This document shows positions 23,442 to 60,806 of a DNA stretch of 64,000 nucleotides, piece after piece. Numbering within the stretch: position 1 is the first letter of the stretch; each line of letters starts with the position of its first letter. The stretch is from a virus, in the UHGV virus genome UHGV-0037280; one strand, 5' to 3'. A program made the position numbers and the translations under genes. The notes beneath the pieces were generated by a model. That model saw only the letters and a program-made list of their open reading frames with translations. It was not told where the DNA came from and did not search any database.

Positions 23442-24704
23442 ATGATCACTTCAGCACAAAACCAATCAATCGAAAATGTATCTATCCCTGACGTCCTGAA
23501 TGCCGGTATCCCGGCCATTATCCAGAACATCCGGGCCGCGCAACGCCGCGTTAGTTGTGATGACCTCACAGCGCGTTTTTTTGATAATGCGGTTCAGTCA
23601 GCGGAGATGCTTCACGCACAGCTTATTGATGTTTATAACGCAGAAGCTGATAGCCATAACTCCCTGGTAGATGCAGCTGAAAATATGCAGTTGGATCTCG
23701 GTCTGAAGGGTAAAGAAATTGAAGAGCTTCAGCTACAAATTGAACATTTGAAACGCCAGCAACAGGACGCGATCGACGATGCGACGCATGACGCCAACCA
23801 GCGTGCTGATAATGCCGAACGTATAAGCATTGAGCTGGAAACAAAACTCAATGAAATGACCGCGATGGTTGAACTGCGGAACTCACAGATTTCAACGCTA
23901 AAATCTCAATATAAAGAGATCATGAAACTTGATCCTTTTAACCTTGAGAAACGCTATAACAAAGCTAAAAGCGAGCGACAGGAACTGCGTAAGCAGGTCG
24001 CCGACCTTAACCAACAGCTCAAAAAAACTATTAAAGATGCAAGCGAAGCGCGCGTGGCATTTGCTAATAAAAAAGCAGAGGTTACCGCGCTGGTTAATGA
24101 GAATGCCAAATTTGCGACGCTCAAGAAGGAAATGTATGGCATTACTGAGCGCCGTTTCCCTGCAAGCAAACTTCATCCGACGTTAGGGCAAATCTCCTTC
24201 TTCCCGCGCCTCCTGGCTTATGGGATCTCATCGCCTAAAGAGTTCAATAACGAGCGTCCTTATATCGTTTCTAAGCTGGACTTTGCTTATCAGTTCTGCT
24301 GCGACATGGGCTATGCCATTGATATCCGGATCAACGAATGGTTGATGCCAAACTTCCAGCCGTTGGCCATTTTCCGCGAGTTCCAGCCGGAAGGTTGGGT
24401 AGAGTTCTTCCATGAATTGATCTGTAAAGAGATGGAAAGCCGCCGCCCGGAACTGGTCCGTCGAGTTGAGTGGGCGCAAGAGGTTATGTTGGCAGAGGCA
24501 GAGCTGCCGTTCGAACCGGAATTTATTGATGATCTGGCAGCTAAAGGGCTGCATACCCTGTTTGATGTGGTTACCCGCCGTCATGAGCAGTTGGTTGTCG
24601 AATTGGGTTTAGAGGAAACAGCGGCAAGAAGACTTCTCGATGTTTGCTATGCACGTAGCGATGCATGGGAAAAAGAGAACGGCGGCACTATTTACGTTCG
24701 CTGA
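23442..24704 (+). CDS. Coiled-coil protein (420 aa)
   Basis: ATG 23442; long heptad-like E/Q/K-rich region in N-terminal half. Confidence 0.55.
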   Translation: MITSAQNQSIENVSIPDVLNAGIPAIIQNIRAAQRRVSCDDLTARFFDNAVQSAEMLHAQLIDVYNAEADSHNSLVDAAENMQLDLGLKGKEIEELQLQIEHLKRQQQDAIDDATHDANQRADNAERISIELETKLNEMTAMVELRNSQISTLKSQYKEIMKLDPFNLEKRYNKAKSERQELRKQVADLNQQLKKTIKDASEARVAFANKKAEVTALVNENAKFATLKKEMYGITERRFPASKLHPTLGQISFFPRLLAYGISSPKEFNNERPYIVSKLDFAYQFCCDMGYAIDIRINEWLMPNFQPLAIFREFQPEGWVEFFHELICKEMESRRPELVRRVEWAQEVMLAEAELPFEPEFIDDLAAKGLHTLFDVVTRRHEQLVVELGLEETAARRLLDVCYARSDAWEKENGGTIYVR

Positions 24705-24726
24705 CAGTTACAGTGTCACTTTTAAT

Positions 24727-24757
24727 GCTGGTGGAGTGCGCCCACCAGCATTTTTTC
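24727..24757 (+). terminator. Intrinsic terminator
   Basis: gctggtgg agtgcgc ccaccagc followed by attttttcg. Confidence 0.6.
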
Positions 24758-24775
24758 GTCCAATGAGGAGGGAAT

Positions 24776-25282
24776 TTGAGTATTTTCAATAAACACGCAC
24801 ACCAGGAACGTCCGTATATCGTCATAGTTGATATTGATGGAACAATATCAGAGGCAACTGAAGACAGACTGCATTTGCTTCCGCCACCAGGTAAAGGTGC
24901 ATTAACAAAGGACTGGAACGAGTTTAATCTCGCCTGTGACACTGATACTCCCATAACTCCAGTTATTGATATTGTGCGCCAGTTATTTAACGTTTACACG
25001 GTCTGGTTTGTAACCGGGCGCTGTGAGATCGCAAGGGATAAAACACGAGCCTGGCTGCGGAAGTACGTAACAAACGGGGCTGAGCCTTTGCTATCTATGC
25101 GTCCTGCCACCGATGACAGAAATGACGGCCCAGCAAAGATTGATCTCCTTAAGAAAATTGGTCTAAGTAAAATTGCGTTCGCGCTGGAAGATAAGATTGA
25201 AGTGGCGCGTGTTTTCAGGAGGCACGGCGTGCTTACGTTAATGGTCAGGGAGTATGAAAACGCGCTTCTCCATCAACAATAA
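24776..25282 (+). CDS. HAD-superfamily phosphatase-like protein (TTG start)
   Basis: DxDGT motif VIVDIDGTI near N-terminus; AGGAGG 7 nt upstream of TTG. Confidence 0.55.
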   Translation: MSIFNKHAHQERPYIVIVDIDGTISEATEDRLHLLPPPGKGALTKDWNEFNLACDTDTPITPVIDIVRQLFNVYTVWFVTGRCEIARDKTRAWLRKYVTNGAEPLLSMRPATDDRNDGPAKIDLLKKIGLSKIAFALEDKIEVARVFRRHGVLTLMVREYENALLHQQ

Positions 25283-25298
25283 TTGCTCTAATAAATAT
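25282..25298 (+). promoter_or_regulatory. C1 operator (ATTGCTCTAATAAATAT)
   Basis: 16/17 match to consensus. Confidence 0.6.
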
Positions 25299-25476
25299 TG
25301 ATTTTTAAAGCAGAGGAAGTGAAAATAAAAACATGCCGCAAGGCGCGGCATGTATCCAATCAATCACAGGAGCTGAAAATATGAACACGGCATTCAAAAT
25401 CATTATGGCCGCGATCTATTTCTGGCTGTTCTCTATCACTTTTGGCGGCATCGTCGCACATGGGTAAGGGGGATGC

Positions 25477-26055
25477 ATGAAAGGCGAAGTGAAAGAGCGC
25501 GGCATGATTTTTAACGATGAGATGGTCCGGGCAATTCTTGGCGGGAATAAAACACAGACTCGCAGGATTGTTGAAGAAAAATTCTATGGACGGGCAGTGG
25601 CCGCAGAGTTGCTTGCCAAGCATTGTCCATATGGTCAACCGGGCGATCGTATTTGGGTTCGCGAAACCTACCGGGTACATGGCAAAGCGACGGACGTCGC
25701 AACGCTGGTTTATCGCGCAAGCGTGCGTAACTCCTGGACAGAACAAACGCACCGGGTTCCGGTCGAGGTTTGTAATAAACCAGTATCAGAAAAGTGGACG
25801 CCATCAATTCACATGCCGCGCTGGGCTTCGCGTATTTTGCTGGAAATTACCGACGTGCGTGTGGAACGGCTGCATGACATGAGCGAGGCAGATGCTAAAG
25901 CGGAAGGCGCATCTCCGGCGACGTACAAGATTACACCGCCGGAAGCTGTTTATCGCGTTGGTTTCGGTGATATCTGGCGCGGTATTTACGGGCAAGAGAA
26001 CTGGCTATCTAACCCGTGGGTATGGGTAATCGAGTTTAAGCGCATTCAGGAATAA
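25477..26055 (+). CDS. ASCH/PUA-like domain protein
   Basis: MVRAILGGNKTQTRR N-terminal pattern typical of ASCH-like folds. Confidence 0.45.
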   Translation: MKGEVKERGMIFNDEMVRAILGGNKTQTRRIVEEKFYGRAVAAELLAKHCPYGQPGDRIWVRETYRVHGKATDVATLVYRASVRNSWTEQTHRVPVEVCNKPVSEKWTPSIHMPRWASRILLEITDVRVERLHDMSEADAKAEGASPATYKITPPEAVYRVGFGDIWRGIYGQENWLSNPWVWVIEFKRIQE

Positions 26056-26058
26056 ACC

Positions 26059-26937
26059 GTGAGTATGCATCAAGTTGTCAGCTTTTCAGGTGGACGAACA
26101 TCGGCTTATCTCGTTCATCTGATGGAAGCAAAGCGAAAAGCTGGCGCTAGCGTCCATTTCATTTTTATGGATACCGGCTGTGAACATCCTCTGACGTATC
26201 GCTTTATTCGTGAGGTTGTGAAGTTCTGGAACGTACCGCTAACGGTGTTGCAGGTCGATATAAATCCAGAACTTGGGCAGCCAAATGGTTATACGGAATG
26301 GGAACCAAAGGATATTCAGACGCGAATGCCGGTGCTTAAACCGTTTATGGACATGGTTAAAAAGTACGGTACGCCATACATCGGCGGCGCGTTCTGTACT
26401 GACAGGCTAAAACTCACCCCTTTCACGAAATATTGCGATGACCATTTTGGGCGAGGGAATTACATTACATGGCTGGGTATTCGTGCGGACGAACACCGCA
26501 GGCTGAAACCGAAACCGGGCGTCCGGTATCTTGCAGAGCTGTCAGATTTTGATAAGTCGGATGTTATCCGGTGGTGGCGAAAACAACCTTTTGATTTGCA
26601 AATCCCGGAGCACCTAGGGAACTGTGTTTTTTGCATCAAAAAGTCAACGCAAAAGCTGGGGCTTGCATGTAAAGACGAACCTGGTCTGATGCGGGTTTTT
26701 AATGAACTGGTTACAGGTAAACACGTCCGGGATGGTCACCGAAAGACAAATAAAGACGTTATGTACCGTGGTCATCTGAGCCTTGACGGGATTGCCAGAA
26801 TGTATGCCGACAGCGACTACAGAAATTTGTATCAGGCGATGGTGCAAGCCAGGCGATTCGATACCGGCTCGTGTTCAGAGTCATGTGAAATCTGGGGTGA
26901 TCAATTGGAGTTGAAATTCGAAGAGGTGGTGGCATGA
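26059..26937 (+). CDS. PAPS-reductase-like PP-loop ATP pyrophosphatase family protein
   Basis: SFSGGRTSAYL PP-loop motif at N-terminus; C-terminal Cys cluster CSESCEIWG. Confidence 0.7.
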   Translation: MSMHQVVSFSGGRTSAYLVHLMEAKRKAGASVHFIFMDTGCEHPLTYRFIREVVKFWNVPLTVLQVDINPELGQPNGYTEWEPKDIQTRMPVLKPFMDMVKKYGTPYIGGAFCTDRLKLTPFTKYCDDHFGRGNYITWLGIRADEHRRLKPKPGVRYLAELSDFDKSDVIRWWRKQPFDLQIPEHLGNCVFCIKKSTQKLGLACKDEPGLMRVFNELVTGKHVRDGHRKTNKDVMYRGHLSLDGIARMYADSDYRNLYQAMVQARRFDTGSCSESCEIWGDQLELKFEEVVA

Positions 26938-27638
26938 CAACCAAAATTAACTATCAGGCACTACGTGAGATAGCAAAACAGGCAACACAGGGCGAATGGG
27001 TCGCGTTTATTTCGACGGGTACAGGTACGTATGCTGTGCATACGCCCGGTGATAAACGATGTGAAGATGTTATCAAATGGACCGGCTTTGATGGGCTGAA
27101 AAACGCAGAGAACAACGCTCGTTATGTTGCCGCATTCAACCCAAAGGTTGCACTGGAGCTACTTGGTGAAATTAAGCGCCTGGAGGACACAAATATTGAT
27201 GCTATGTGCCGAATAGCACCGCTTGAGACTAAGCTCGCGGCGCTGGTGGCAGAGAACGCCGGGCTGAAACACGCAATGGCCGTAACTCTTGAGCATGTGT
27301 CGGTCACGGATGCAGGGCAGGCTGGTGTTGCTGCAATGATTATCAACGATGCCCTACACCACAGCGAAACTCCAGCTACCGATGCTTTTCTGGCTGAAAT
27401 TCGTGCGGAAGCACGCAACGAGGGGATTAACTATACCGCCAGCCGTCTTGCTGCTGCGTTCAATCACGGATTTATCAATAAGTCTTTGCGTGAAGTTTTC
27501 GACGTTACACGCATGATTTTGTCAGCGAAAGAAGAGTTGGCTAATGAAGCGCATCCGATTGATGGCCTGTCTGGTGAATATGCGGAGAAATCCCTTGAAG
27601 AATGGGCGGAACAGATTCGCAAAGGAAGCAGCCAGTGA
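26934..27638 (+). CDS. Ead/Ea22-like prophage protein, paralog 1
   Basis: N-terminus INYQALREIAKQATQGEW; shares C-terminal module DAFLAEIRA with 27922 gene. Confidence 0.55.
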   Translation: MTTKINYQALREIAKQATQGEWVAFISTGTGTYAVHTPGDKRCEDVIKWTGFDGLKNAENNARYVAAFNPKVALELLGEIKRLEDTNIDAMCRIAPLETKLAALVAENAGLKHAMAVTLEHVSVTDAGQAGVAAMIINDALHHSETPATDAFLAEIRAEARNEGINYTASRLAAAFNHGFINKSLREVFDVTRMILSAKEELANEAHPIDGLSGEYAEKSLEEWAEQIRKGSSQ

Positions 27639-27925
27639 ATATCGACACGACAATAACGATCGATACGCTCCTAAATACCGGTCTGGCACTTCTCGGTTGG
27701 CTTTACATCATGTCCCGTACATGGCGATGGCTGGGTTCCATTTTCCTAAAACAGTGGAAAAAACGGCGCAAACAGGAACTACGCCAGAAGGCATTAGAAG
27801 CGTTCTATGACGCATTTGAGCTTAGCCGCATTGAACCAGGTACAACAGCCAGGATAGCGACAAAAGGCGACCTGATGATAGTGATGTTCCGACAGGAGAG
27901 AGCAGAGAAAGGGGAATCAGCATGA
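27635..27925 (+). CDS. Small membrane protein (GTG start)
   Basis: AGGAAG 8 nt upstream of GTG overlapping preceding stop; one hydrophobic helix. Confidence 0.4.
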   Translation: MNIDTTITIDTLLNTGLALLGWLYIMSRTWRWLGSIFLKQWKKRRKQELRQKALEAFYDAFELSRIEPGTTARIATKGDLMIVMFRQERAEKGESA

Positions 27926-28590
27926 AATTTTCCAAATTTTCTGAGTTGGTGAATCGTATTTTGTCCAACAACCACAGCCATCGTCGCGATATGGATGTAA
28001 CGATCGTTGTTCATTCGCCTGGCAGCATTGGTTCAACACCCTCAGTTGAAGTTCAGTCAATTCACGCTGGTTTTGATTGGGATTCCGGGAAAGTGCTGAT
28101 TTTCCCAGCACAGCCACTGACCACTCTAACACCAGAACAGATTACTGATATTACTGATATTACTGATAGTGTGCGCAAAGGTCAGTCCTGGCACGCATAT
28201 CAGGAATACAAGAAGCATAAAGAGCAGTTGGAAAAATTATCGATTGAACTTGATGCCGCAAAACAGCGCATTGCAGAGCTGGAGGGTAATTTCACGGCGC
28301 TGGCAGCGGAGAATGCGGGGCTAAAGGCGATATGTGATGACCGTCGCAGGTTCATCATGAATGGGGTGCAGATGGGTTATATCAAGGTGCCAGCAGCGGA
28401 AACAGATCCAGACCTTGAGACAATTCGCATTGCTATATCACCACAAAAGCCCATTCCAGCCACCGATGCTTTCCTGGCTGAAGTACGGGCGCAGGGGGTA
28501 GAGATGTTTGCTGACCATCTGTTGTGCCCAGACCTTGATGACACTATCCGTGACTTTGCTGCCCAGCTTCGCAAAGGAGGCAACCAGTGA
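27922..28590 (+). CDS. Ead/Ea22-like protein, paralog 2 (contains 9-bp x3 tandem repeat)
   Basis: attactgat x3 at 28141-28167 encoding ITDITDITD; coiled-coil segment; shared C-terminal module. Confidence 0.55.
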   Translation: MKFSKFSELVNRILSNNHSHRRDMDVTIVVHSPGSIGSTPSVEVQSIHAGFDWDSGKVLIFPAQPLTTLTPEQITDITDITDSVRKGQSWHAYQEYKKHKEQLEKLSIELDAAKQRIAELEGNFTALAAENAGLKAICDDRRRFIMNGVQMGYIKVPAAETDPDLETIRIAISPQKPIPATDAFLAEVRAQGVEMFADHLLCPDLDDTIRDFAAQLRKGGNQ

Positions 28591-29282
28591 GCAAAATTAA
28601 CTATCAAGAACTGCGCGAGGCGGCGGAGAAGGCTACGAAAGGTAAGTGGGCTGTTGAATTCGACGATGAGATTTACTCCACTGACGGCATAAACCATGAG
28701 CAAATAGCTATGGTGTTCAGTGAAAACGAATCTCGTGATGCTGAATTCATCGCCGCAGCCAATCCGGCTACCGTCTTGGCGCTGCTGGATGAACGGGAAA
28801 GAAACCAGCAATACATAAAACGCCGCGACCAGGAGAACGAGGATATTGCGCTAACGGTAGGGAGGCTTCGCGTTGAGCTGGAAGGCAAAGACAGCAAAAT
28901 AGCCAATCTTACCGCCGAACGCGATGCTCTTCGTGAAGGTGAGATGGGCGACGCTAGGCATAGCAACACACGGGCCGCAGCTGATATCTACTTCCAACTG
29001 GTCGAGGAGTGCGAAATTCCTGCTGGCGGATCTCTGGTCGAGTACGTTGACGATATGCGCGAGAAGCTGGAAGCCGCAGAGAAGCGCATTGCAGAGTTAG
29101 AAAGTGGTTCTCAGGCACAAAAGTTAGTTGAAGCAATCATTGTTGCGATAGAAAACGAACAGGAAAGGCTTTTTGATGAAGATTACCTAATGGATTCGAA
29201 AGAATGCATTGACGTAATTCGTGAAGAAGTAAAGCGATGGAATGATTCCCGTGCCGCTGGCATTCGCATCAAAGGAGAGTGA
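28587..29282 (+). CDS. Ead/Ea22-like protein, paralog 3 (GTG start)
   Basis: N-terminus INYQELREAAEKATKGKW parallels paralog 1; AAGGAGG upstream. Confidence 0.55.
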   Translation: MSKINYQELREAAEKATKGKWAVEFDDEIYSTDGINHEQIAMVFSENESRDAEFIAAANPATVLALLDERERNQQYIKRRDQENEDIALTVGRLRVELEGKDSKIANLTAERDALREGEMGDARHSNTRAAADIYFQLVEECEIPAGGSLVEYVDDMREKLEAAEKRIAELESGSQAQKLVEAIIVAIENEQERLFDEDYLMDSKECIDVIREEVKRWNDSRAAGIRIKGE

Positions 29283-29283
29283 T

Positions 29284-29547
29284 ATGGCAACTTTAACAAA
29301 AAAAGAACGGGCATGGTTGAACGAATTACAGGACGTTCTTGATCGCTGCCCATCACCGAAAAAAATTGGTTTTTACACCATTGGCGATAAAAGCATTTAC
29401 CTGTATGACCTGCGCCGCATGGATGAAATCATGGAGGCTCTTGATAATCGTTCGTCGATGGATTGGTGTGTTGCTGTCCATGATATGAATGCAGGGTTTG
29501 ATGAAAAGATTTTGTTCCCCTCATCAGTTGAAAGCACTGCGGGTTAA
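29284..29547 (+). CDS. Small hypothetical protein (87 aa)
   Basis: ATG with AAGGAG upstream. Confidence 0.45.
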   Translation: MATLTKKERAWLNELQDVLDRCPSPKKIGFYTIGDKSIYLYDLRRMDEIMEALDNRSSMDWCVAVHDMNAGFDEKILFPSSVESTAG

Positions 29548-29557
29548 GGAGTAACAC

Positions 29558-30430
29558 ATGACCACTATTATCAAAGAACGTATTGAATTGTTCATTAAAA
29601 ATCCGCTTGAAAACGGGCTTACTCGTGGCGAACAAATGGAACTGGCACGAATTGCGCTGGCATCGCTGGAAGCAAAACCAATAGGTGCATTCCACATTGC
29701 AGAACAGCAAGTTGACGGCACAAGTGACTACCTCAAGGATGGAGAATGGCCTATTGATAATGGAATTATTGAGGTCTACGCCGCTCCCCCCGTTCCAGTA
29801 GTACCGGAAGAAAAACCAATGCCTAATCCTCTTAGCATGTACGCGGTTGATGCTGTTGCCGCTATTGCAGAGGTGAGAGGCTGGAACGCCTGCCGCGCCG
29901 CCATGCTTCAGTCCGGAAACTTTCGGGAAAACAAGAATTCGTCAACCAATAACTTTCGGGAAATCGCGGAAACGTCAACCAACTATCCGGTAATTCCTAG
30001 TGAGGTGTTGTCCGCAATCCAGAAGGTTGCCAAGATTCGTGCCGATTTCGATGATTTTGACGGTGACAGGCGAGGTATCGGTGATTGTCTGGATGAGGCT
30101 GAGCAAGAGCTTATCGTTACCATTAACAAATATGCCAGTCAGTTGGCAGCAGAACCTATAGCGCCTAATGACGTTCGAGAGCAGACAGCCATTCCGCAAG
30201 TTCCGGTAACTCCGGATGGTTGGATAAGCTGTAGTGAGCGAATGCCGAATACCAAAACAGCCGTTCTTGTTGCCGTGGAGTTTGACAGGAAAGGTGACTG
30301 GCGAATGAAATGGGCTACTTACATCCCGGGGCATCCTGACGCTAATGATGGGTGGATAATTCCTGGTGCGTCGTGGAAACCGTCACACTGGATGCCGCTA
30401 CCAGAACCGCCGCAGGAGGTGAATCAATGA
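29558..30430 (+). CDS. DUF551-type C-terminal domain prophage protein
   Basis: C-terminal W...P..HWMPLPEPP pattern. Confidence 0.55.
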   Translation: MTTIIKERIELFIKNPLENGLTRGEQMELARIALASLEAKPIGAFHIAEQQVDGTSDYLKDGEWPIDNGIIEVYAAPPVPVVPEEKPMPNPLSMYAVDAVAAIAEVRGWNACRAAMLQSGNFRENKNSSTNNFREIAETSTNYPVIPSEVLSAIQKVAKIRADFDDFDGDRRGIGDCLDEAEQELIVTINKYASQLAAEPIAPNDVREQTAIPQVPVTPDGWISCSERMPNTKTAVLVAVEFDRKGDWRMKWATYIPGHPDANDGWIIPGASWKPSHWMPLPEPPQEVNQ

Positions 30431-30512
30431 GCTGGCCTGAAGCATTCGCAACGGTAGGAATTGTGATGGCGGCAGCACTGGGTTTGTATTCAATTTGTTG
30501 CTGGTGGTAACG

Positions 30513-30746
30513 ATGGGGAAATTAACTTTTGTAGTCGAATTTGAGGATGGTAAAGAGCCACCTGTTAGCGCCAATCTTGATGTTGCTGGTGGCAGGCTTG
30601 TTTCGGTTCTATTTGGTGACTACCGAGATGACTTCTTCCAACCAGAAGAAGTTGATGTAGTGCGAGAGGCATTAAACGAGTTAAGTGTTGACAACGCTGA
30701 TGCTCATGCGGAAATCATCCAAAAAATGGAACTGCTAACTCACTAA
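30513..30746 (+). CDS. Small hypothetical protein
   Basis: ORF track, start moved to ATG 30513. Confidence 0.4.
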   Translation: MGKLTFVVEFEDGKEPPVSANLDVAGGRLVSVLFGDYRDDFFQPEEVDVVREALNELSVDNADAHAEIIQKMELLTH

Positions 30747-30924
30747 ATTAGCAATTATGGTGCTATCACCTACGGCAACGAGAGAAATTTTATAATGTTA
30801 AAAGTAAATGTTTTGATTTTTTCAGTAATTGTAGGTTTTGGTTTTTCTGCTGGAGTACATATTTATATTACGTGGGGAAAAATCATCAACTACGTATGGG
30901 GTTGTTTTATTAAGTGAGGTAAGT

Positions 30925-31218
30925 ATGTGGAGAGGTAATAGTCATGGCAAAAGCCAGATGATACTTACCGAATATCAGTTTGACCATAAAACCAATAAAT
31001 CACGTTCAGTATATTTGCTTCGGCACAATAGCCGCGTAAGGAATACCGTGCTGGAGCAAAATCTGACTGTTGAAATGGATAATTACGGGGGCTTCAAGCC
31101 AACAATTTCGCTTGATGATTTTCCTCGTGGTTTAAGCGAAAGAGAAGCAATGCTGAAATTGGCAGAATGGCTACAAAGATTAAGCATTGCTATTGAAGAT
31201 AACTGGTCTGAACCTTAA
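30925..31218 (+). CDS. Hypothetical protein in AT-rich segment
   Basis: ATG 30925 with GTGAGG upstream. Confidence 0.4.
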   Translation: MWRGNSHGKSQMILTEYQFDHKTNKSRSVYLLRHNSRVRNTVLEQNLTVEMDNYGGFKPTISLDDFPRGLSEREAMLKLAEWLQRLSIAIEDNWSEP

Positions 31219-31224
31219 ATTTAT

Positions 31225-31584
31225 ATGATGACACTAAAACATTTTCTTGACCGCCCATTATGGGCGGCAGCCGCAGGCTATGACTTTAATTATATGGATT
31301 GCATGTCTTATACCGCCAATGCATACGACCATTCCTTCAGTCTGCTGTTTAATTCTTTAAGAATATTGCCGCAAACAGAAGTTGGAGAGCTTCATTTATG
31401 GCTATTGGGCTTTATCGCGGCTGGAGTTGGTATTGCTGTATGGCCTTTTATTTTCTGGCTGGTGGCTGTTGTAGTGTGGTTTAAGTGCAAGACATACCGG
31501 AGAAAGTATTTCTTAGGTGATGGAATGACTGATATTGCCAAAATGAACATTGAAAAATGGACTAAGGAATGTGAAAAGAAATGA
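31225..31584 (+). CDS. Membrane protein (119 aa)
   Basis: Hydrophobic segment LWLLGFIAAGVGIAVWPFIFWLVAVVVW. Confidence 0.45.
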   Translation: MMTLKHFLDRPLWAAAAGYDFNYMDCMSYTANAYDHSFSLLFNSLRILPQTEVGELHLWLLGFIAAGVGIAVWPFIFWLVAVVVWFKCKTYRRKYFLGDGMTDIAKMNIEKWTKECEKK

Positions 31585-32063
31585 CCAGAATCACTGAAGA
31601 ACGCATATCGGAGATTATCGCCCGTATTGAAATGTATGGTCACGGTGCTGGATATACGGCAGATAAAGTATTGGAAATAGCCCAGCAGATGCTGGCCTTG
31701 AGACAAAAAGAGCAACATGAAAGTAATACATGTAGATTGAATTTTGAGCAGTGGCTGGAACAGCAACGCGGAAAAATCGATGTGGACTGTGGTTGTGTGT
31801 CCACTGAAACATTCATGCACTGGTTGCGGGTAGCTTACGAGGCTGGCAACTATCCGGATAGTTCGGAGCAAGCGCCAGGAAATGGCGTCCCCGGCGAACG
31901 TATACGAATTAAGCCGCATGTTTACCGCGAACTGGTTAACCGTCTCCACGATACAGCTATCAAGTGTGCTGGCACCCAGCAATTACGAGAAAGAATTAGC
32001 CGTGTTTTGGGCGACGTTATTACGCCAGATCATCATAAACAAGCCGAGAAAAGTGGCCTGTAA
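31581..32063 (+). CDS. Hypothetical protein (160 aa), translationally coupled to the membrane protein
   Basis: ATGA overlap with upstream gene. Confidence 0.5.
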   Translation: MTRITEERISEIIARIEMYGHGAGYTADKVLEIAQQMLALRQKEQHESNTCRLNFEQWLEQQRGKIDVDCGCVSTETFMHWLRVAYEAGNYPDSSEQAPGNGVPGERIRIKPHVYRELVNRLHDTAIKCAGTQQLRERISRVLGDVITPDHHKQAEKSGL

Positions 32064-32270
32064 AGGTGTCACCTTGAGGCGGCATTAAACATTAACCCGG
32101 GGCATACGCTTGGCATTATTGATGCACTATTGGTTCATAAGATGGCCAGGGCTTTATTGCCGCTGGTAGGGGGCAATGACAACTAGGAAAAAATCGCATT
32201 ACTGGTGGCAAAGCCATAACTACTGATACAATATTTCTAGGTTAAAGATCTGGCATTAGGTAGAGATAGC

Positions 32271-32735
32271 ATGTTTCTTCATATCAATCCCGATTGGGCA
32301 TCAGCTATTGCGGCATTTGGGTCAGCAATAGCTGCTTTTATTAGTTTGCGCACAAGTAAAAAGCTTGGATTATTCGATAAGGAAAAATTTTATAGTGAAG
32401 CATTGATAAACTTTGCTGATAGGGCAAATAAAATAGCAACAGGAAAAGCTGGATCAGACTGGGATGTTAATGACGCAAGTAATATAATTCTTTCACTAAA
32501 TGCCGCAAAAGAAACTATTGAAAGTGCGCCAAAACCTATTCGAGAGCAACTAAAACAATATTACAAACATAATCTTTGCCATGAGATCATAACCGAATTA
32601 GAGGCTCACTCTCCCCCAGATTCAGTAATTGTAAGAGAACCATCAGAGTATGAAGGCAAGATCATGGGATTGTGGGATGAGATTAAAATATTTCTGGGTT
32701 ATACAGTGGTATCAGAAGCAGACCTTGAAGATTAA
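32271..32735 (+). CDS. AT-rich gene encoding membrane-anchored protein (154 aa)
   Basis: N-terminal hydrophobic helix WASAIAAFGSAIAAFISL; markedly AT-rich codon usage. Confidence 0.5.
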   Translation: MFLHINPDWASAIAAFGSAIAAFISLRTSKKLGLFDKEKFYSEALINFADRANKIATGKAGSDWDVNDASNIILSLNAAKETIESAPKPIREQLKQYYKHNLCHEIITELEAHSPPDSVIVREPSEYEGKIMGLWDEIKIFLGYTVVSEADLED

Positions 32736-32837
32736 AGTTTGGTGTGACCACATCATTTCATCAATGATGCCCGAAGTGGGGAGTTTGACGATTGTCCGGT
32801 GATTTAAGCTGCAAAGTGCTGGTGCTTTATGCTTGTG

Positions 32838-32879: not shown

Positions 32880-33101
32880 ATGCAATCCATTAACTTCCGT
32901 ACCGCACGCGGCAACCTTAGCGAAGTGCTCAATAATGTTGAAGCAGGGGAAGAGGTTGAAATCACCCGCAGAGGCCGTGAATCAGCCGTAATTGTCAGCA
33001 AGGCCACTTTCGAAGCCTATAAAAAAGCGGCGCTGGATGCCGAATTTGCATCCCTGTTTGACACTCTGGACTCCACTAACAAGGAACTGGTTAACCGATA
33101 A
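32880..33101 (+). CDS. phd: Phd antitoxin
   Basis: [73 protein letters not shown] matches P1 Phd as I recall it. Confidence 0.9.
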
Positions 33102-33481
33102 TGAGGCATATATCACCGGAAGAACTTATTGCGCTTCATGATGCGAATATAAGCCGCTACGGCGGCCTGCCGGGCATGTCAGATCCGGGCAGGGCAGAAG
33201 CCATTATCGGGAGAGTTCAGGCCAGAGTTGCCTACGAAGAGATCACCGACCTTTTCGAAGTCTCCGCCACCTACCTGGTGGCTACAGCGAGAGGGCATAT
33301 ATTCAATGATGCCAATAAGCGTACCGCGCTAAACAGTGCGCTGTTATTTCTACGCCGTAACGGGGTGCAGGTATTTGATTCACCTGAACTGGCAGACCTT
33401 ACCGTAGGCGCTGCGACTGGCGAGATATCTGTATCTTCTGTCGCCGACACGTTACGTAGATTGTATGGTTCTGCGGAGTAG
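33101..33481 (+). CDS. doc: Doc toxin (Fic-fold kinase)
   Basis: Start overlaps phd stop; Fic motif [13 protein letters not shown]. Confidence 0.9.
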
Positions 33482-38060: not shown

Positions 38061-38190
38061 GTGATTTTTGACTGCCGATGTTACATTGAACCTGACATCT
38101 TGCGCCTTGAGGCATTTTCGGTTTATGCTTATCAGGCACCTCATTAAAACGGGTGCCGGGATTGAGACCCCGGATAATGTCAAAGGCGAC

Positions 38191-38216
38191 ACAGACGCCG
38201 AAAGCGTCTTTTTTTT
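38191..38216 (+). terminator. Intrinsic terminator (stem gacgc/gcgtc, T8)
   Basis: gacgc cgaaa gcgtc followed by tttttttt. Confidence 0.55.
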
Positions 38217-38265
38217 GTGTCATGCCATCGCACAGCCATACGTAGCGTTTAGCTCAGAGATCAAT

Positions 38266-38345
38266 GGTAGTGCTGGCTGGGCTGCCGAAAGGCAGGCCGG
38301 TTCCCTTTGACGCCGGTAGTCTCAACCCAGTCAGTGCTACCGCCA
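38266..38345 (+). ncRNA. Candidate c4-like antisense RNA of immunity module 1 (tRNA-like end ACCGCCA)
   Basis: 10-bp terminal stem ggtagtgctg/cagtgctacc followed by GCCA; internal cctttgac (38304-38311) is perfectly complementary to gtcaaagg (38383-38390) overlapping the icd SD. Confidence 0.4.
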
Positions 38346-38401
38346 TTGAGATTGAGACCTCACGCGGTAGCTCCTTAACTTAGTCAAAGGAGGCTGCCAT
38401 T

Positions 38402-44719: not shown

Positions 44720-44790
44720 CGCTGCTAAACAGGTGGCAGGACGTGACGGGGTTAGCAGACTGGCGTTAGTGAAACCAGCAGGCCGAAGCC
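44720..44790 (-). ncRNA. Candidate c4-like antisense RNA of module 2
   Basis: Minus-strand segment tcactaac (plus-strand gttagtga 44765-44772) is perfectly complementary to the SD-containing leader (plus-strand 44692-44699) of the second icd copy; boundaries approximate. Confidence 0.3.
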
Positions 44791-44998
44791 TCCCCATCAC
44801 GCCCCACCATAATTTGGGCGTAACGCGGTTTTACGGACACAAAAATACCGCAATATCGGATATCTGCGGTTGTCCACACTAACATTCAGGCTGCTAAACC
44901 CGGTCGCAGAATTTGCTACGACGTAGGAACTATAAGCCTGAACAACAGGAAGATCAATAGTCTGGCGTCCAATAGTAGTTTATTTGTTTCAATAAATC

Positions 44999-45959: not shown

Positions 45960-46910
45960 TTAATCAATAAATACACGGAATGGCTCAAGCATCCCTTCAG
46001 GATCTTTATCCTCGTCACCAAGTGATATTAGTCTTCTGGCGAGTAGTTTTACATCATCATCATCTTTAATGAAGCCAACCTGATCATTATTAAAATAGAT
46101 ATCGATTATTTTTAGGATTTGCTCTTGTGTAAAATGATTGAATTTTAATAACTTTGCTACAACTCGATGTGTTGTGGCAAAACTGCCTGAGCGGCGTAAT
46201 TCATCTATAGTGAAATTAACTTCCATTTCCGCTAAGTTACTGGCTTGAGGAAAGTGCTCGCCTATAAACTCTGATAAGCGGGCATAGATATGTGGTTCTG
46301 AATCTTTCTTCTTTTTCCACTCGTACTTCAAATACTCATTCATATCATCCTTTATAAAGGCACTTTTATAATCACCATCTTCAGTTATAATGTATATATC
46401 CTCTCCGTTTGGTATCGCTTTTAGCAAACACTCCCAATTGACTGCATCACCATATGATTTATTTTTACCCGGAGGGTTGCCAAGATCGAATCGGCGTTTC
46501 CCCTTTTCTATTGTTTCATCATCAGCCTCTATCTTAGACGCTGCATCAAAAATCCTTTTAATTACAACATCGGCAGCTAAAGACTCTTCTTTAAATAAGT
46601 TCTGTATATCGGTAATAATTTCATTCTTTAGCCGACTAGCTTCTATAACCTTATCATTAAATAGTGAATGTTTTTCATGCTGTCTGAAAATCTGTGGTAG
46701 CGCGGGCTTGTAGTCTTTTGCAATTTCCTTTATGGTTTCAGAGAGAACTTTAGAACGATTTCTCCAGAACTCATTCACTAAAAGTTCTGGCAACCAAAGT
46801 TTTAAACGACCATATTGATGTAAGGCAAATACTTTATCTAGCTCATCTAGTTTATCCTTACCCATTCGATAAAATTCTAAATATAGATTTGTATCAATAA
46901 AAACATTCAT
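45960..46910 (-). CDS. PIN-like nuclease-domain protein (316 aa), AT-rich
   Basis: N-terminus MNVFIDTNLYLEFY with Asp at position 6, later acidic cluster ITEDGDY, consistent with a PIN-like fold; AGGATG SD; strongly AT-rich versus flanks. Confidence 0.65.
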   Translation of the reverse strand: MNVFIDTNLYLEFYRMGKDKLDELDKVFALHQYGRLKLWLPELLVNEFWRNRSKVLSETIKEIAKDYKPALPQIFRQHEKHSLFNDKVIEASRLKNEIITDIQNLFKEESLAADVVIKRIFDAASKIEADDETIEKGKRRFDLGNPPGKNKSYGDAVNWECLLKAIPNGEDIYIITEDGDYKSAFIKDDMNEYLKYEWKKKKDSEPHIYARLSEFIGEHFPQASNLAEMEVNFTIDELRRSGSFATTHRVVAKLLKFNHFTQEQILKIIDIYFNNDQVGFIKDDDDVKLLARRLISLGDEDKDPEGMLEPFRVFID

Positions 46911-58959: not shown

Positions 58960-59748
58960 ATGACAGCACAAAATACTAAAACAATTCAATACCGCCTGCG
59001 TAATGGCCAGAGTGTCGAAGTGACCGTCAATAATGATGGAGTGCCAGGCGAAAAGGTTTCTATCTCTGATCTGGCTATCGAAAAAACCATCATGTGCCAC
59101 CTTGGCTTTACTGAAGAAGTGAGCAAAAAGCATGGTGTAGCAATCTGGAGCGCAATGGATACTGGTATGCGCAGATTCATTACTGCTCGTACCCCAGGGA
59201 TGACCATGATGGACCTCATGCAGATTGCGCCGCTGTTTGAGTGTGAACCTTTGGATGTATTCAGCAATCCAGCTATCTGCCAGCAGTTATATGGTGAGAT
59301 GAAACTCGCGGTTACCCCCATTGTGCTGCATGAAGGATCGCTTGCTGGCGTATGGAAAGTAGAGCGAATTTCAAGCTACATGCCTTTCCATGTCAACGGC
59401 GTAATCACTGGTGAAAATCAACCTGTTTCCGTTATAAAGTCAGACCTCAAGCGCGCAATTCTTGAAGCAAGTTGTCGAGTTGTCGGCCTGGGCAAACAGT
59501 CTTATGTTTCCTTCCCGGCTGGCCCTGAAGGCCCGGCAGAAATTCTGATTATGGATGCCGATCTGCTCTGGCAAATACAGTTTCTGATTGGCAAAAGCAT
59601 CATCCGCGATGAAGAACTCGATCAGTACATTACCTGCACGATGACGGATGAAGTCAAAAGTGTGGCTATAGCCAATGCCCGGAACCTATGTCGTGCTGCA
59701 TTAACAGAACTGCAAGAAAACACCACGGGAGAAGTGGAAAGTGATTAA
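58960..59748 (+). CDS. Hypothetical protein (262 aa)
   Basis: ATG 58960 with GAGGAAAG upstream. Confidence 0.5.
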   Translation: MTAQNTKTIQYRLRNGQSVEVTVNNDGVPGEKVSISDLAIEKTIMCHLGFTEEVSKKHGVAIWSAMDTGMRRFITARTPGMTMMDLMQIAPLFECEPLDVFSNPAICQQLYGEMKLAVTPIVLHEGSLAGVWKVERISSYMPFHVNGVITGENQPVSVIKSDLKRAILEASCRVVGLGKQSYVSFPAGPEGPAEILIMDADLLWQIQFLIGKSIIRDEELDQYITCTMTDEVKSVAIANARNLCRAALTELQENTTGEVESD

Positions 59749-59749
59749 A

Positions 59750-59780
59750 AAGAACCCGCCAATTGGCGGGTTCTTTATTT
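59750..59780 (+). terminator. Intrinsic terminator (11-bp stem)
   Basis: aagaacccgcc aatt ggcgggttctt tattt. Confidence 0.7.
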
Positions 59781-59994
59781 ATTGAATTAGCATTCAACTC
59801 CCGATTGTTATAGCGAACACTATGTAACAGAATAATATTATTAACATTTTAGTAATAAGTTGATTATTCATCTTCTGTATTCGCAAAGCGTAAGTATTGC
59901 TCATAGTTTCTTATTCCAGTACATTGTGATTCGTTGAGGCAAAAGAATAGTGGCAATTCTACTGGCAATAAACTCAAGTAAGAGGTTGTAAACA

Positions 59995-60282
59995 ATGGAA
60001 AAACTGAACAATTTCTTAGACAAAATATCCACCCCAAACACTCGCGCAGGCCACACTATTACCCGCATAGCTAAGCTAAGCGATGCGGGTGTCAGTGATG
60101 ACGTAATCGCACTTCAACTGTCCAGTAACAGTGCAAATGGCTTCCGATATACAGCAGATGAAATAAAAGCGTATAAGAAGCTCCACAATGATGTAAAAAC
60201 CAAAGTGGGAATTACATCCAAACAAACAAAAGCATTAATCAAAGATCAAGAGCTGACTTTTGTTGCATTGCCTCAAAACTAA
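59995..60282 (+). CDS. Small hypothetical protein in AT-rich islet (95 aa)
   Basis: ATG with AAGAGG upstream; AT-rich flanks. Confidence 0.45.
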   Translation: MEKLNNFLDKISTPNTRAGHTITRIAKLSDAGVSDDVIALQLSSNSANGFRYTADEIKAYKKLHNDVKTKVGITSKQTKALIKDQELTFVALPQN

Positions 60283-60310
60283 ATTTGTTTAAAGCTATAG
60301 CTAACAAAGA

Positions 60311-60356
60311 GTTATAAGAGCGATAGTGATAAATTTATCATTGTCGCTCTTATAAC
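60311..60356. other. Nested palindrome (13-bp outer stem around an inner 14-bp palindrome)
   Basis: gttataagagcga ... tgataaatttatca ... tcgctcttataac. Confidence 0.45.
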
Positions 60357-60485
60357 CTTGTTAAAGATAAGAATATAACCCAAAAGATATACATGGGTTA
60401 TTAAGGCCATAATTATCAGGCAAATAACATGAAGTCGTCTATGTGATGGATGAAATTTGAACAATCAATTCTATGCCAATTCCTG

Positions 60486-60806
60486 TCAATACAAGAGTTG
60501 GTTTACTGTTTCATCACTAAAAACCTCTTCATCGTCATCATCATCCTCATCGCCACCATCTACTGCTGGCCAATCAACAAACCAGCCAGCGTAAAGATGC
60601 AGCGTTCGGAGAACATCACTTGCGGGAGCATCAAGGGTGTTAACGAATCCCATATAGCTATTGGGATTTGCCCCAGCTATGGCTTCAGCGATCATGTCCT
60701 CGGTAATGTCACCGGAGATAATGCTTAAACGCCCGGAAACTTCTTCGTTATCATCAAATTCGATAATGGCATCTCCACCTAATGGCGCTGCGATTTTAAT
60801 CTGCAT
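60486..60806 (-). CDS. Small acidic protein (106 aa)
   Basis: C-terminal DGGDEDDDDDEE; downstream of and overlapping the 995-aa gene. Confidence 0.5.
   Translation of the reverse strand: MQIKIAAPLGGDAIIEFDDNEEVSGRLSIISGDITEDMIAEAIAGANPNSYMGFVNTLDAPASDVLRTLHLYAGWFVDWPAVDGGDEDDDDDEEVFSDETVNQLLY

What the first reader, a model, noticed from the sequence alone, without database searches (positions are those of the whole stretch)
30780..32735. AT-rich accessory cargo immediately upstream of phd-doc
The segment before the phd-doc addiction module contains several short ORFs with AT-rich composition unlike the backbone: 30925-31218, a membrane protein 31225-31584 coupled by ATGA overlap to a 160-aa protein 31581-32063, and a 154-aa membrane-anchored protein 32271-32735. 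None carries a motif I recognise. I do not see the theta-subunit and UmuD-like homologues I remember at this position in P1. Small membrane-protein pairs next to toxin-antitoxin loci are frequent superinfection-exclusion or abortive-infection candidates.
Basis: partly seen in the sequence, partly recalled or inferred. Interest (0 to 1): 0.55.

Follow-up and report, generated by a model that had tools for sequence, protein, structure and literature searches.

The report
Swapped accessory genes in P1-like plasmid
In this P1-like phage-plasmid, a stretch already known to vary between relatives carries four small genes of unknown function in place of P1's hot, lxr and humD genes, and nothing found here shows that they defend against other phages.

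Summary
The window is a P1-like phage-plasmid. ORFs A (30925-31218), B (31225-31584), C (31581-32063) and D (32271-32735) exist. The interval has 40.8% GC against 48.2% for the window. hot, lxr, pmgV and upfMNO are absent, and only the last 17 codons of humD remain.

It is not one island. A and B end a roughly 5.9-kb block of lambdoid-prophage-type early genes placed inside pmgT, downstream of the conserved C1 operator OpmgT. The distal half of C is P1 PmgU backbone (about 50% GC), cut short by a stop codon seen only in this window. D sits on a 570-bp, 37.5%-GC cassette that replaces 2.4 kb of P1. Its left edge lies on a Chi-like octamer.

A, B and D match PHROG families of unknown function. 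None matches Pfam, NCBIfam, PADLOC or P22 SieA/SieB. Structure models of A and D found no informative fold match.

D belongs to a small family. All eight relatives examined lie in early regions of temperate phages or prophages. The family has a predicted N-terminal membrane anchor and a helical bundle.

The interval is the published "variable region 8" of P1-like elements. Accessory cargo is supported. An exclusion or abortive-infection role is untested speculation. Interest is low to moderate.

The parts
25282..25298 (+). C1 repressor operator, the equivalent of P1 OpmgT/Op88, at the head of the co-oriented gene array that ends with A, B and C
   Evidence: One mismatch to the operator consensus. 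It lies inside the segment 23895-25568, which is 96.9% identical to P1, and at the position of the annotated P1 OpmgT.
30795..30917 (+). 40-aa very hydrophobic small ORF just upstream of A
   Evidence: phrog_5525, E 8e-19, full length. Kyte-Doolittle 19-residue mean 1.96. Annotated as a CDS in phage vB_EcoM-813R1.
30925..31218 (+). ORF A, 97 aa, a conserved hypothetical protein seen in enterobacterial genomes, P1-like plasmids and phage contigs
31225..31584 (+). ORF B, 119 aa, membrane protein with a hydrophobic stretch at residues 57-87 followed by a basic patch
   Evidence: phrog_2638, E 5e-61. Kyte-Doolittle mean 2.38. 16 clusters, many of them on contigs of about 90-98 kb. 42% identical homologue in Yersinia phage P840 and 35% in Klebsiella phage phiKp_30.
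31581..32063 (+). ORF C, 160 aa: a variable N-terminal module fused to a P1 PmgU-homologous part and truncated by a premature stop
   Evidence: tblastn of P1 PmgU residues 3-108 gives 88.7% identity at 31872-32189, in the C frame and running across the stop. Homologues in five related elements are 213-221 aa.
31835..32167 (+). Island of P1 backbone (pmgT 3' end and pmgU) between the two replaced segments
   Evidence: 91.5% nucleotide identity to P1. GC 49.8%.
32061..32063 (+). TAA stop codon where P1, RCS47, 813R1 and two related plasmids all have GAA. It removes about 41 conserved C-terminal residues of C.
32163..32170 (+). Chi-like octamer GCTGGTAG at the left edge of the D cassette. It is a perfect Chi (GCTGGTGG) in RCS47 and 813R1 and GTTGGTGG in P1.
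   Evidence: The alignment shows three different right-hand continuations starting at this octamer. The window holds 52 Chi sites against 1.6 expected.
32168..32737 (+). 570-bp AT-rich cassette that replaces the 2381 bp of P1 running from the end of pmgU through pmgV, upfM/N/O, hot and lxr into humD
   Evidence: No similarity to P1, RCS47 or 813R1. GC 37.5%. Present in 9 of 1206 matching PLSDB plasmids and 10 of 5426 complete E. coli genomes.
32205..32232 (+). Sigma-70 promoter-like site with a TG-extended -10, inside the cassette and 39 nt upstream of D
   Evidence: It is a consensus match only, and such sites are not more frequent in the region than in shuffled sequence.
32271..32735 (+). 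ORF D, 154 aa: predicted N-terminal membrane anchor, cytoplasmic helical bundle and acidic C-terminal tail (EADLED)
32738..32806 (+). Remnant of the 3' end of humD, where P1 homology resumes
   Evidence: The megablast match to P1 starts at 32738, which is P1 position 87905; humD ends at 87973. HumD residues 113-129 are found at 32754-32804.
32880..33481 (+). phd-doc addiction module, the intact right-hand boundary
   Evidence: Phd is 98.6% and Doc 100% identical to P1.

Best explanation
The interval is the right-hand end of the known hypervariable "region 8" (pmgT to humD) of P1-like phage-plasmids. It has been rebuilt here by two recombinational replacements around a surviving piece of P1 backbone.

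Shown:
- About 5.9 kb of lambdoid-prophage-type early genes sit inside pmgT, downstream of the conserved C1 operator. They include a PAPS-reductase-like gene, three Ea22-like genes, a DUF551 gene, small ORFs, and then A and B.
- A 333-bp P1 pmgT/pmgU piece follows. It forms the distal part of C, which carries a premature stop.
- A 570-bp AT-rich cassette carrying only D then replaces the end of pmgU, pmgV, upfMNO, hot, lxr and most of humD. Its left junction lies at a Chi-like octamer and its right junction inside humD.
- A, B and D are real, conserved proteins of PHROG families with no known function.

Inferred:
- A, B and C are transcribed with the C1-repressed early lytic operon, as pmgT is in P1.
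- D is a single-pass inner-membrane protein with a short N-terminus outside and a helical bundle in the cytoplasm. It has no conserved catalytic-type residues, so it most probably acts by binding a host or phage partner at the inner face of the membrane during early phage development.
- These are dispensable, exchangeable early accessory genes drawn from the shared gene pool of temperate enterobacterial phages. They are not a dedicated defence module linked to phd-doc.
- Losing hot, lxr and humD removes P1's LexA-regulated genes from this element.
For: Identity and position:
- The window is 98.4% identical to P1 over 87% of its first 25 kb.
- P1 homology runs 23895-25568, 31835-32167 and from 32738 onward.
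- The OpmgT-like operator is at 25282-25298.
- Plus-strand ORFs are tightly packed from 25477 to 32063.
- P1 Hot, Lxr, PmgV and UpfMNO are absent, and only a HumD remnant is left.

Published context:
- PMC9603915 lists pmgT-pmgU-pmgV-upfMNO-hot-lxr-humD as highly variable region 8 of P1-like phage-plasmids and links the variable regions to low GC.
- A CRISPRi screen found every tested gene from pmgT to doc non-essential for P1 (PMC10695390).

Distribution:
- Sequence from 30780-32800 matches 458 PLSDB plasmids. Sequence covering both A and B is in eight records of the phage collection.
- D is in only 9-10 records.

The D family:
- All eight D relatives examined lie in early regions of temperate phages or prophages. 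Several sit next to Ea22, DUF551 or theta (hot-like) genes.
- D relatives are AT-richer than their surroundings in 7 of 8 loci.
- The family alignment shows a conserved hydrophobic N-terminus, net negative or neutral charge before it and positive charge after it. Its conserved positions are mostly non-polar; only S25 and N53 are polar, and there is no conserved His, Asp, Glu or Cys set.
- The structure model is confident (pLDDT 85) and is a helical bundle without a specific fold relative.

Junction:
- Three lineages diverge at the same Chi octamer.
- The genome is strongly Chi-enriched.
Against: - No expression data exist. A promoter-like site with an extended -10 lies just upstream of D, so D could be made in the lysogen, which would fit a conversion or defence role better.
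- The membrane anchor of D is only predicted, and it is below the usual hydrophobicity threshold in this copy.
- A binding rather than enzymatic role is inferred only from the absence of conserved catalytic-type residues and of fold matches.
- Operon membership of A-C is inferred from P1 annotation and gene packing, not measured.
- The Chi coincidence (roughly 1% by chance) is suggestive, not proof of a mechanism.
Confidence: 0.6

Rival explanations
1. D, alone or with the membrane protein B, is a prophage-expressed superinfection-exclusion or abortive-infection determinant. It would block DNA entry at the inner membrane or kill infected cells, and it travels next to the phd-doc addiction module.
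For: - B and D are small predicted membrane proteins.
- D is on an AT-rich cassette with a promoter-like site of its own.
- D relatives are AT-richer than their flanks in 7 of 8 loci.
- One relative lies two genes from a PD-lambda-1 defence gene in phage PhiR26_1.
- The nin and ea regions of lambdoid phages are known to hold defence genes (general knowledge).
Against: - None of A-D has a PADLOC hit, and no D family member has a consistent one.
- No profile similarity to P22 SieA or SieB.
- In seven of the eight D loci examined no annotated or Pfam-recognisable defence gene lies next to the D gene.
- In L011, L013 and L015 the D gene follows the preceding early gene by only 44-79 nt, and in L013 and L014 a terminator-like hairpin lies about 10-15 nt upstream of its start. 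This looks like antitermination-dependent early expression.
- A-C lie behind a C1 operator.
- The promoter scan is at chance level.
Confidence: 0.17
2. D stands in functionally for the genes it displaced, or works with them. It would be a replication or SOS-linked accessory factor, since its relatives lie beside theta (hot-like) genes in lambdoid prophages.
For: - D homologues are directly upstream of DNA_pol3_theta genes in L013 and L014 and three genes from one in L016.
- In this window D occupies the position of hot, lxr and humD.
Against: - No sequence or fold similarity to Hot, Lxr or HumD.
- A membrane-anchored helical bundle is an unlikely polymerase or repair accessory.
- Adjacency inside a mosaic region of unrelated small genes carries little functional weight.
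- Other relatives have no theta neighbour.
Confidence: 0.05
3. The interval is decaying recombination debris, and the ORFs, at least C and D, are no longer functional.
For: - C carries a premature stop seen only in this window.
- A humD stump remains.
- The D cassette is rare.
Against: - A, B and D are full length relative to their PHROG profiles.
- A has 23 invariant columns across genera.
- The D family keeps length, hydrophobic N-terminus, invariant W64 and a C-terminal acidic motif at 27-41% identity.
- The D copies in ten plasmids are intact.
Confidence: 0.08

Closest known systems
[quoted passage not shown]
   Same: Same position, between pmgS/pap with the OpmgT operator and phd-doc. It has the same behaviour (gene replacement) and the low GC that the paper reports for the variable regions.
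   Different: The specific D cassette that removes hot, lxr and humD is a rare variant, found in 9 of 1206 plasmids. It is not described in the papers read here.
Accessory early genes of the lambdoid nin and ea (exo-xis) regions, including "morons"
   Same: D has relatives in these regions of temperate prophages and phages, and so does B (Klebsiella phage phiKp_30 and Yersinia phage P840). The upstream array consists of Ea22-like and DUF551 genes. D-family genes are AT-richer than their flanks.
   Different: Here they sit in a P1-type plasmid prophage under a C1 operator. The classic moron signature of an own promoter plus a terminator is not demonstrated: a promoter-like site exists only at chance level and there is no terminator.
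P1 PmgU (putative morphogenetic function, non-essential)
   Same: Residues 98-160 of C are 88.7% identical, over the whole tblastn match, to PmgU residues 3 onward, in the same frame and position.
   Different: C has a different N-terminal module. It lacks the last ~41 conserved residues because of a GAA-to-TAA change at 32061.
Superinfection-exclusion proteins of temperate phages (P22 SieA and SieB)
   Same: They are small proteins (164 and 192 aa) encoded by a temperate phage and annotated as superinfection-exclusion proteins in the P22 record. From general knowledge, SieA is an inner-membrane protein expressed from the prophage.
   Different: No profile similarity: hhalign probability 0.2% or less. 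D relatives lie within early regions rather than at immunity loci. No functional data exist.

Membership tests
P1-like phage-plasmid variable region 8 | Lies between the conserved pmgS/pap/OpmgT segment and the conserved phd-doc genes | tested here: met
   P1 homology runs up to 25568 and from 32738 onward. phd and doc are 98.6-100% identical to P1. The region is defined in PMC9603915.
DNA polymerase III theta homologue (P1 Hot, PF06440) | Sequence similarity to Hot or to the theta domain | tested here: not met
   tblastn of P1 Hot against the whole window finds nothing at E <= 1e-3. A-D have no PF06440 hit.
UmuD-like S24 peptidase (P1 HumD) | Full-length HumD coding sequence | tested here: not met
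   Only residues 113-129 of 129 are present, at 32754-32804.
P1 PmgU | Full-length similarity to PmgU (111 aa) | tested here: inconclusive
   88.7% identity over PmgU residues 3-108 at the DNA level, but the reading frame is closed by TAA at 32061-32063, about two thirds of the way through the match.
PHROG families 1258 (A), 2638 (B) and 1779 (D) | Full-length profile match | tested here: met
   E values 1e-49, 5e-61 and 5e-63, each covering the protein and the profile end to end. All three families are labelled unknown function.
Known anti-phage defence proteins (PADLOC-DB v2) | Significant match to any defence-system model | tested here: not met
   No hits for A-D at E <= 1. Of 19 D-family members, no model is hit by more than two, and always at E > 0.001.
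P22 SieA / SieB superinfection exclusion | Profile-level sequence similarity | tested here: not met
   hhalign of the D family against SieA gives probability 0.1% and against SieB 0.2%.
Superinfection exclusion or abortive infection (functional class) | Expression from the prophage and reduced plating of a superinfecting phage | not testable with these tools
   This needs transcript mapping and phage-challenge assays.
Moron (an independently transcribed added gene in a phage genome) | Atypical composition | tested here: met
   D has 37% GC and 25% GC3 against 48.2% for the window. Family members are AT-richer than their flanks in 7 of 8 loci.
Moron (an independently transcribed added gene in a phage genome) | Own promoter and own terminator flanking the gene | tested here: inconclusive
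   A promoter-like site lies at 32205-32232, but the scan finds 9 sites in the region against 14.9 expected in shuffles. There is no terminator-like site between D and phd.

The most novel reading that the evidence does not exclude
The D family (PHROG 1779) would be a new single-gene defence or exclusion determinant. A membrane-tethered cytoplasmic helical bundle, with a conserved acidic C-terminal DxDLxD tail, would dock on a host inner-membrane component and block DNA entry or development of competing phages. In this rare P1 lineage it would have been traded for the SOS-linked hot-lxr-humD genes.
Probability: 0.13. Interest if true: 0.55.

Novelty: new member of a known kind. Interest (0 to 1): 0.25.

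Why it matters
It shows how P1-like phage-plasmids draw on the lambdoid prophage gene pool at a defined variable region. One mosaic junction coincides with a Chi site. It also records a rare lineage that has lost P1's theta and UmuD' homologues.

The D family is small, conserved and confidently modelled, yet has no Pfam, defence-database or fold relative. That makes it a tractable orphan for functional screening. As it stands the finding is a routine case of mosaic accessory cargo, not a new system.

Tried and rejected
- Pfam, NCBIfam and PADLOC scans of A-D and of the neighbouring small ORFs gave only sub-threshold noise. Scanning all 19 D-family members gave no consistent family.
- The word-based protein search for D found only its own cluster. 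The exhaustive HMMER search was needed to find 20 further clusters.
- The search for related loci with the D alignment failed because there is no conserved 7-10-column stretch.
- The afdb50 fold library was unavailable.
- The PDB sequence search for A and the D profile found nothing.
- I tested whether A and B form a conserved pair. The gene upstream of the B homologue in Yersinia phage P840 is unrelated to A, so I rejected that idea.
- A search for transposon-like terminal repeats around the D cassette found only short chance repeats.
- Promoter scans upstream of two D homologues were at chance level.
- The literature search for the PhiR phages led nowhere. One search had a malformed term. 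The P1 genome paper is not held.

Full report
**What the window is.** The first 25 kb are 98.4% identical to phage P1 over 87% of their length. The region around the finding matches Punavirus genomes and many E. coli and Salmonella plasmids. The window is therefore part of a P1-like phage-plasmid. P1 tRNA genes and C4 antisense RNA genes are present.

**Checking the observation.**
- PHROG profile matches cover A, B and D end to end. The B stop and C start overlap as ATGA.
- The interval has 40.8% GC against 48.2% for the window, the 0.3rd percentile of same-length windows. D is 37.0% GC with 25% GC3.
- The low GC is not uniform. The stretch 31835-32167 is 49.8% GC.
- B has a strong hydrophobic stretch, with a Kyte-Doolittle mean of 2.38. 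The N-terminal segment of D is borderline in this copy at 1.49.
- tblastn with P1 proteins finds no Hot, Lxr, PmgV or UpfM/N/O in the whole window, and only the last 17 residues of HumD.

**Anatomy relative to P1.** P1 homology runs through 23895-25568. This segment includes the C1 operator OpmgT at 25282-25298 and the first 92 nt of pmgT.

About 5.9 kb of non-P1 DNA follows, all on the plus strand and tightly packed. It holds:
- a diverged PmgT-like N-terminal ORF;
- a PAPS-reductase-like ORF;
- three Ea22-like ORFs;
- a DUF551 protein;
- small ORFs, including a 40-aa hydrophobic one;
- A and B.

P1 homology then returns for 333 bp at 31835-32167 (91.5% identity; the pmgT 3' end and pmgU). 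It disappears for 570 bp (32168-32737, carrying D) and resumes at 32738, which is 69 nt before the end of humD. From there it continues through phd, doc, pdcA and pdcB. The 570 bp replace 2381 bp of P1.

**ORF C.**
- Its distal part is PmgU, 88.7% identical in the same frame.
- Its N-terminal module varies between elements.
- At 32061-32063 the window has TAA where P1, RCS47, 813R1 and two plasmids have GAA. This removes about 41 conserved residues. Homologues are 213-221 aa.
- The ATGA overlap between B and C is a 15-bp deletion variant of a 19-nt overlap seen in relatives.

**Junctions.**
- The left edge of the D cassette lies in the octamer GCTGGTAG. The same place is a perfect Chi in RCS47 and 813R1 and GTTGGTGG in P1.
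- RCS47, the window and the P1/813R1 type continue differently from exactly this point.
- The window has 52 Chi sites against 1.6 expected. A Chi within a few bases of a given point has roughly a 1% chance.
- No terminal repeats flank the cassette.
- I infer homologous or homology-facilitated recombination in the conserved flank, possibly Chi-stimulated. This is not shown.

**Distribution.**
- Sequence from 30780-32800 matches 458 PLSDB plasmids. Sequence covering both A and B is found in eight phage-collection records: RCS47, SJ46, 813R1 and three P1-like isolates.
- The D cassette is in 9 of 1206 matching plasmids and 10 of 5426 complete E. coli genomes.
- No database plasmid has this exact combination.

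**What the proteins are.** None of A-D matches Pfam, NCBIfam or PADLOC above noise.

*A* (phrog_1258) is a conserved 97-aa protein found across enterobacterial genera. Its model (pLDDT 80.6) is a four-stranded sheet plus a helix, with no informative fold match.

*B* (phrog_2638) is a membrane protein with 16 clusters, many on contigs of about 90-98 kb. More distant homologues occur in a Yersinia phage and a Klebsiella phage, in early or nin regions with different neighbours.

*D* (phrog_1779):
- It has only 21 clusters among 1.84 billion representatives.
- The family keeps a hydrophobic, small-residue-rich N-terminal segment. The Kyte-Doolittle mean is 1.6 or more in 16 of the 17 other full-length members, with neutral or negative charge before the segment and positive charge after it.
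- It also keeps an invariant Trp, an "A-x-R-A-N" helix and, in most members, a C-terminal DxDLxD tail.
- AlphaFold2 gives pLDDT 85.3: a long first helix running into a helical bundle.
- Profile comparison with P22 SieA and SieB is negative.

**Context of D relatives.**
- All eight loci examined are early regions of temperate phages or prophages. They lie either between the replication genes and NinB/RusA/Q or in the ea region near the integrase.
- Several follow Ea22 or DUF551 genes, and three lie beside theta (hot-like) genes.
- The D gene is AT-richer than its flanks in 7 of 8 loci.
- Gaps to the preceding gene are 44-79 nt in L011, L013 and L015. In L013 and L014 a terminator-like hairpin lies about 10-15 nt upstream of the start.
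- Only one locus has an annotated defence gene nearby, PD-lambda-1.

**Literature.**
- PMC9603915 lists pmgT through humD as highly variable region 8 of P1-like phage-plasmids and notes low GC in the variable regions.
- A genome-wide CRISPRi screen scored all tested genes from pmgT to doc as non-essential for P1 (PMC10695390).

**Interpretation.** The best-supported reading is a mosaic replacement within a known dispensable variable region, using genes from the common pool of temperate enterobacterial phages.
- A-C probably belong to the C1-repressed early operon. This is inferred from the P1 annotation and from gene packing.
- D is probably an N-out, C-in membrane-anchored, non-enzymatic binding protein. 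This is inferred from the family features and the model.
- A promoter-like site with an extended -10 lies upstream of D. It leaves open expression in the lysogen, but the scan is at chance level.

**Verdict.** It includes a rare cassette carrying a small orphan protein family. I rate it a new member of a known kind, of low to moderate interest.

Noticed in passing
window 32163-32170; whole window: Chi (GCTGGTGG) occurs 52 times in 64 kb against 1.6 expected. The mosaic breakpoint where P1/813R1, RCS47 and this window diverge lies exactly on a Chi or Chi-like octamer.
   Followed up: partly
window 32061-32063: A TAA stop seen only in this window truncates the PmgU-like ORF C. All five comparators have GAA. 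A 15-bp deletion at the B/C boundary creates the ATGA overlap.
   Followed up: yes
window 45960-46910 (- strand): The lowest-GC island of the window (about 35% GC) encodes a 316-aa PIN_12/PIN_8-domain protein. It has a partial match to the PADLOC candidate defence model PDC-S34 (E 1.4e-11). This is a better defence candidate than anything in the finding.
   Followed up: partly
window 38136-38347 (+) and 44729-44935 (-): There are two C4 antisense RNA genes. One is preceded by an isrK-like sRNA just after pacB, and the other comes with its a1/b1 target sites. This suggests two immI-type immunity and antirepressor modules.
   Followed up: no
window 25477-30430: The gene array that replaces pmgT holds a diverged PmgT-like N-terminal ORF, a PAPS-reductase-like ORF (weak SspD/DndC-like PADLOC hits), three Ea22-like paralogues and a DUF551 protein. 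These are typical lambdoid ea-region genes inside a P1 operon.
   Followed up: partly
   Followed up: partly
L013 and L014, 5940-6830; L016, 5028-6495: In lambdoid prophages the D-family gene sits beside a DNA polymerase III theta (hot-like) gene. In L013 and L014 a terminator-like hairpin lies about 10-15 nt upstream of its start codon.
   Followed up: partly
window 59400-60800: This is a second low-GC stretch (38-41% GC). It holds small ORFs without Pfam or PADLOC matches, next to a 995-aa protein with a ddrB-like ParB domain (60796-63783, - strand).
   Followed up: no
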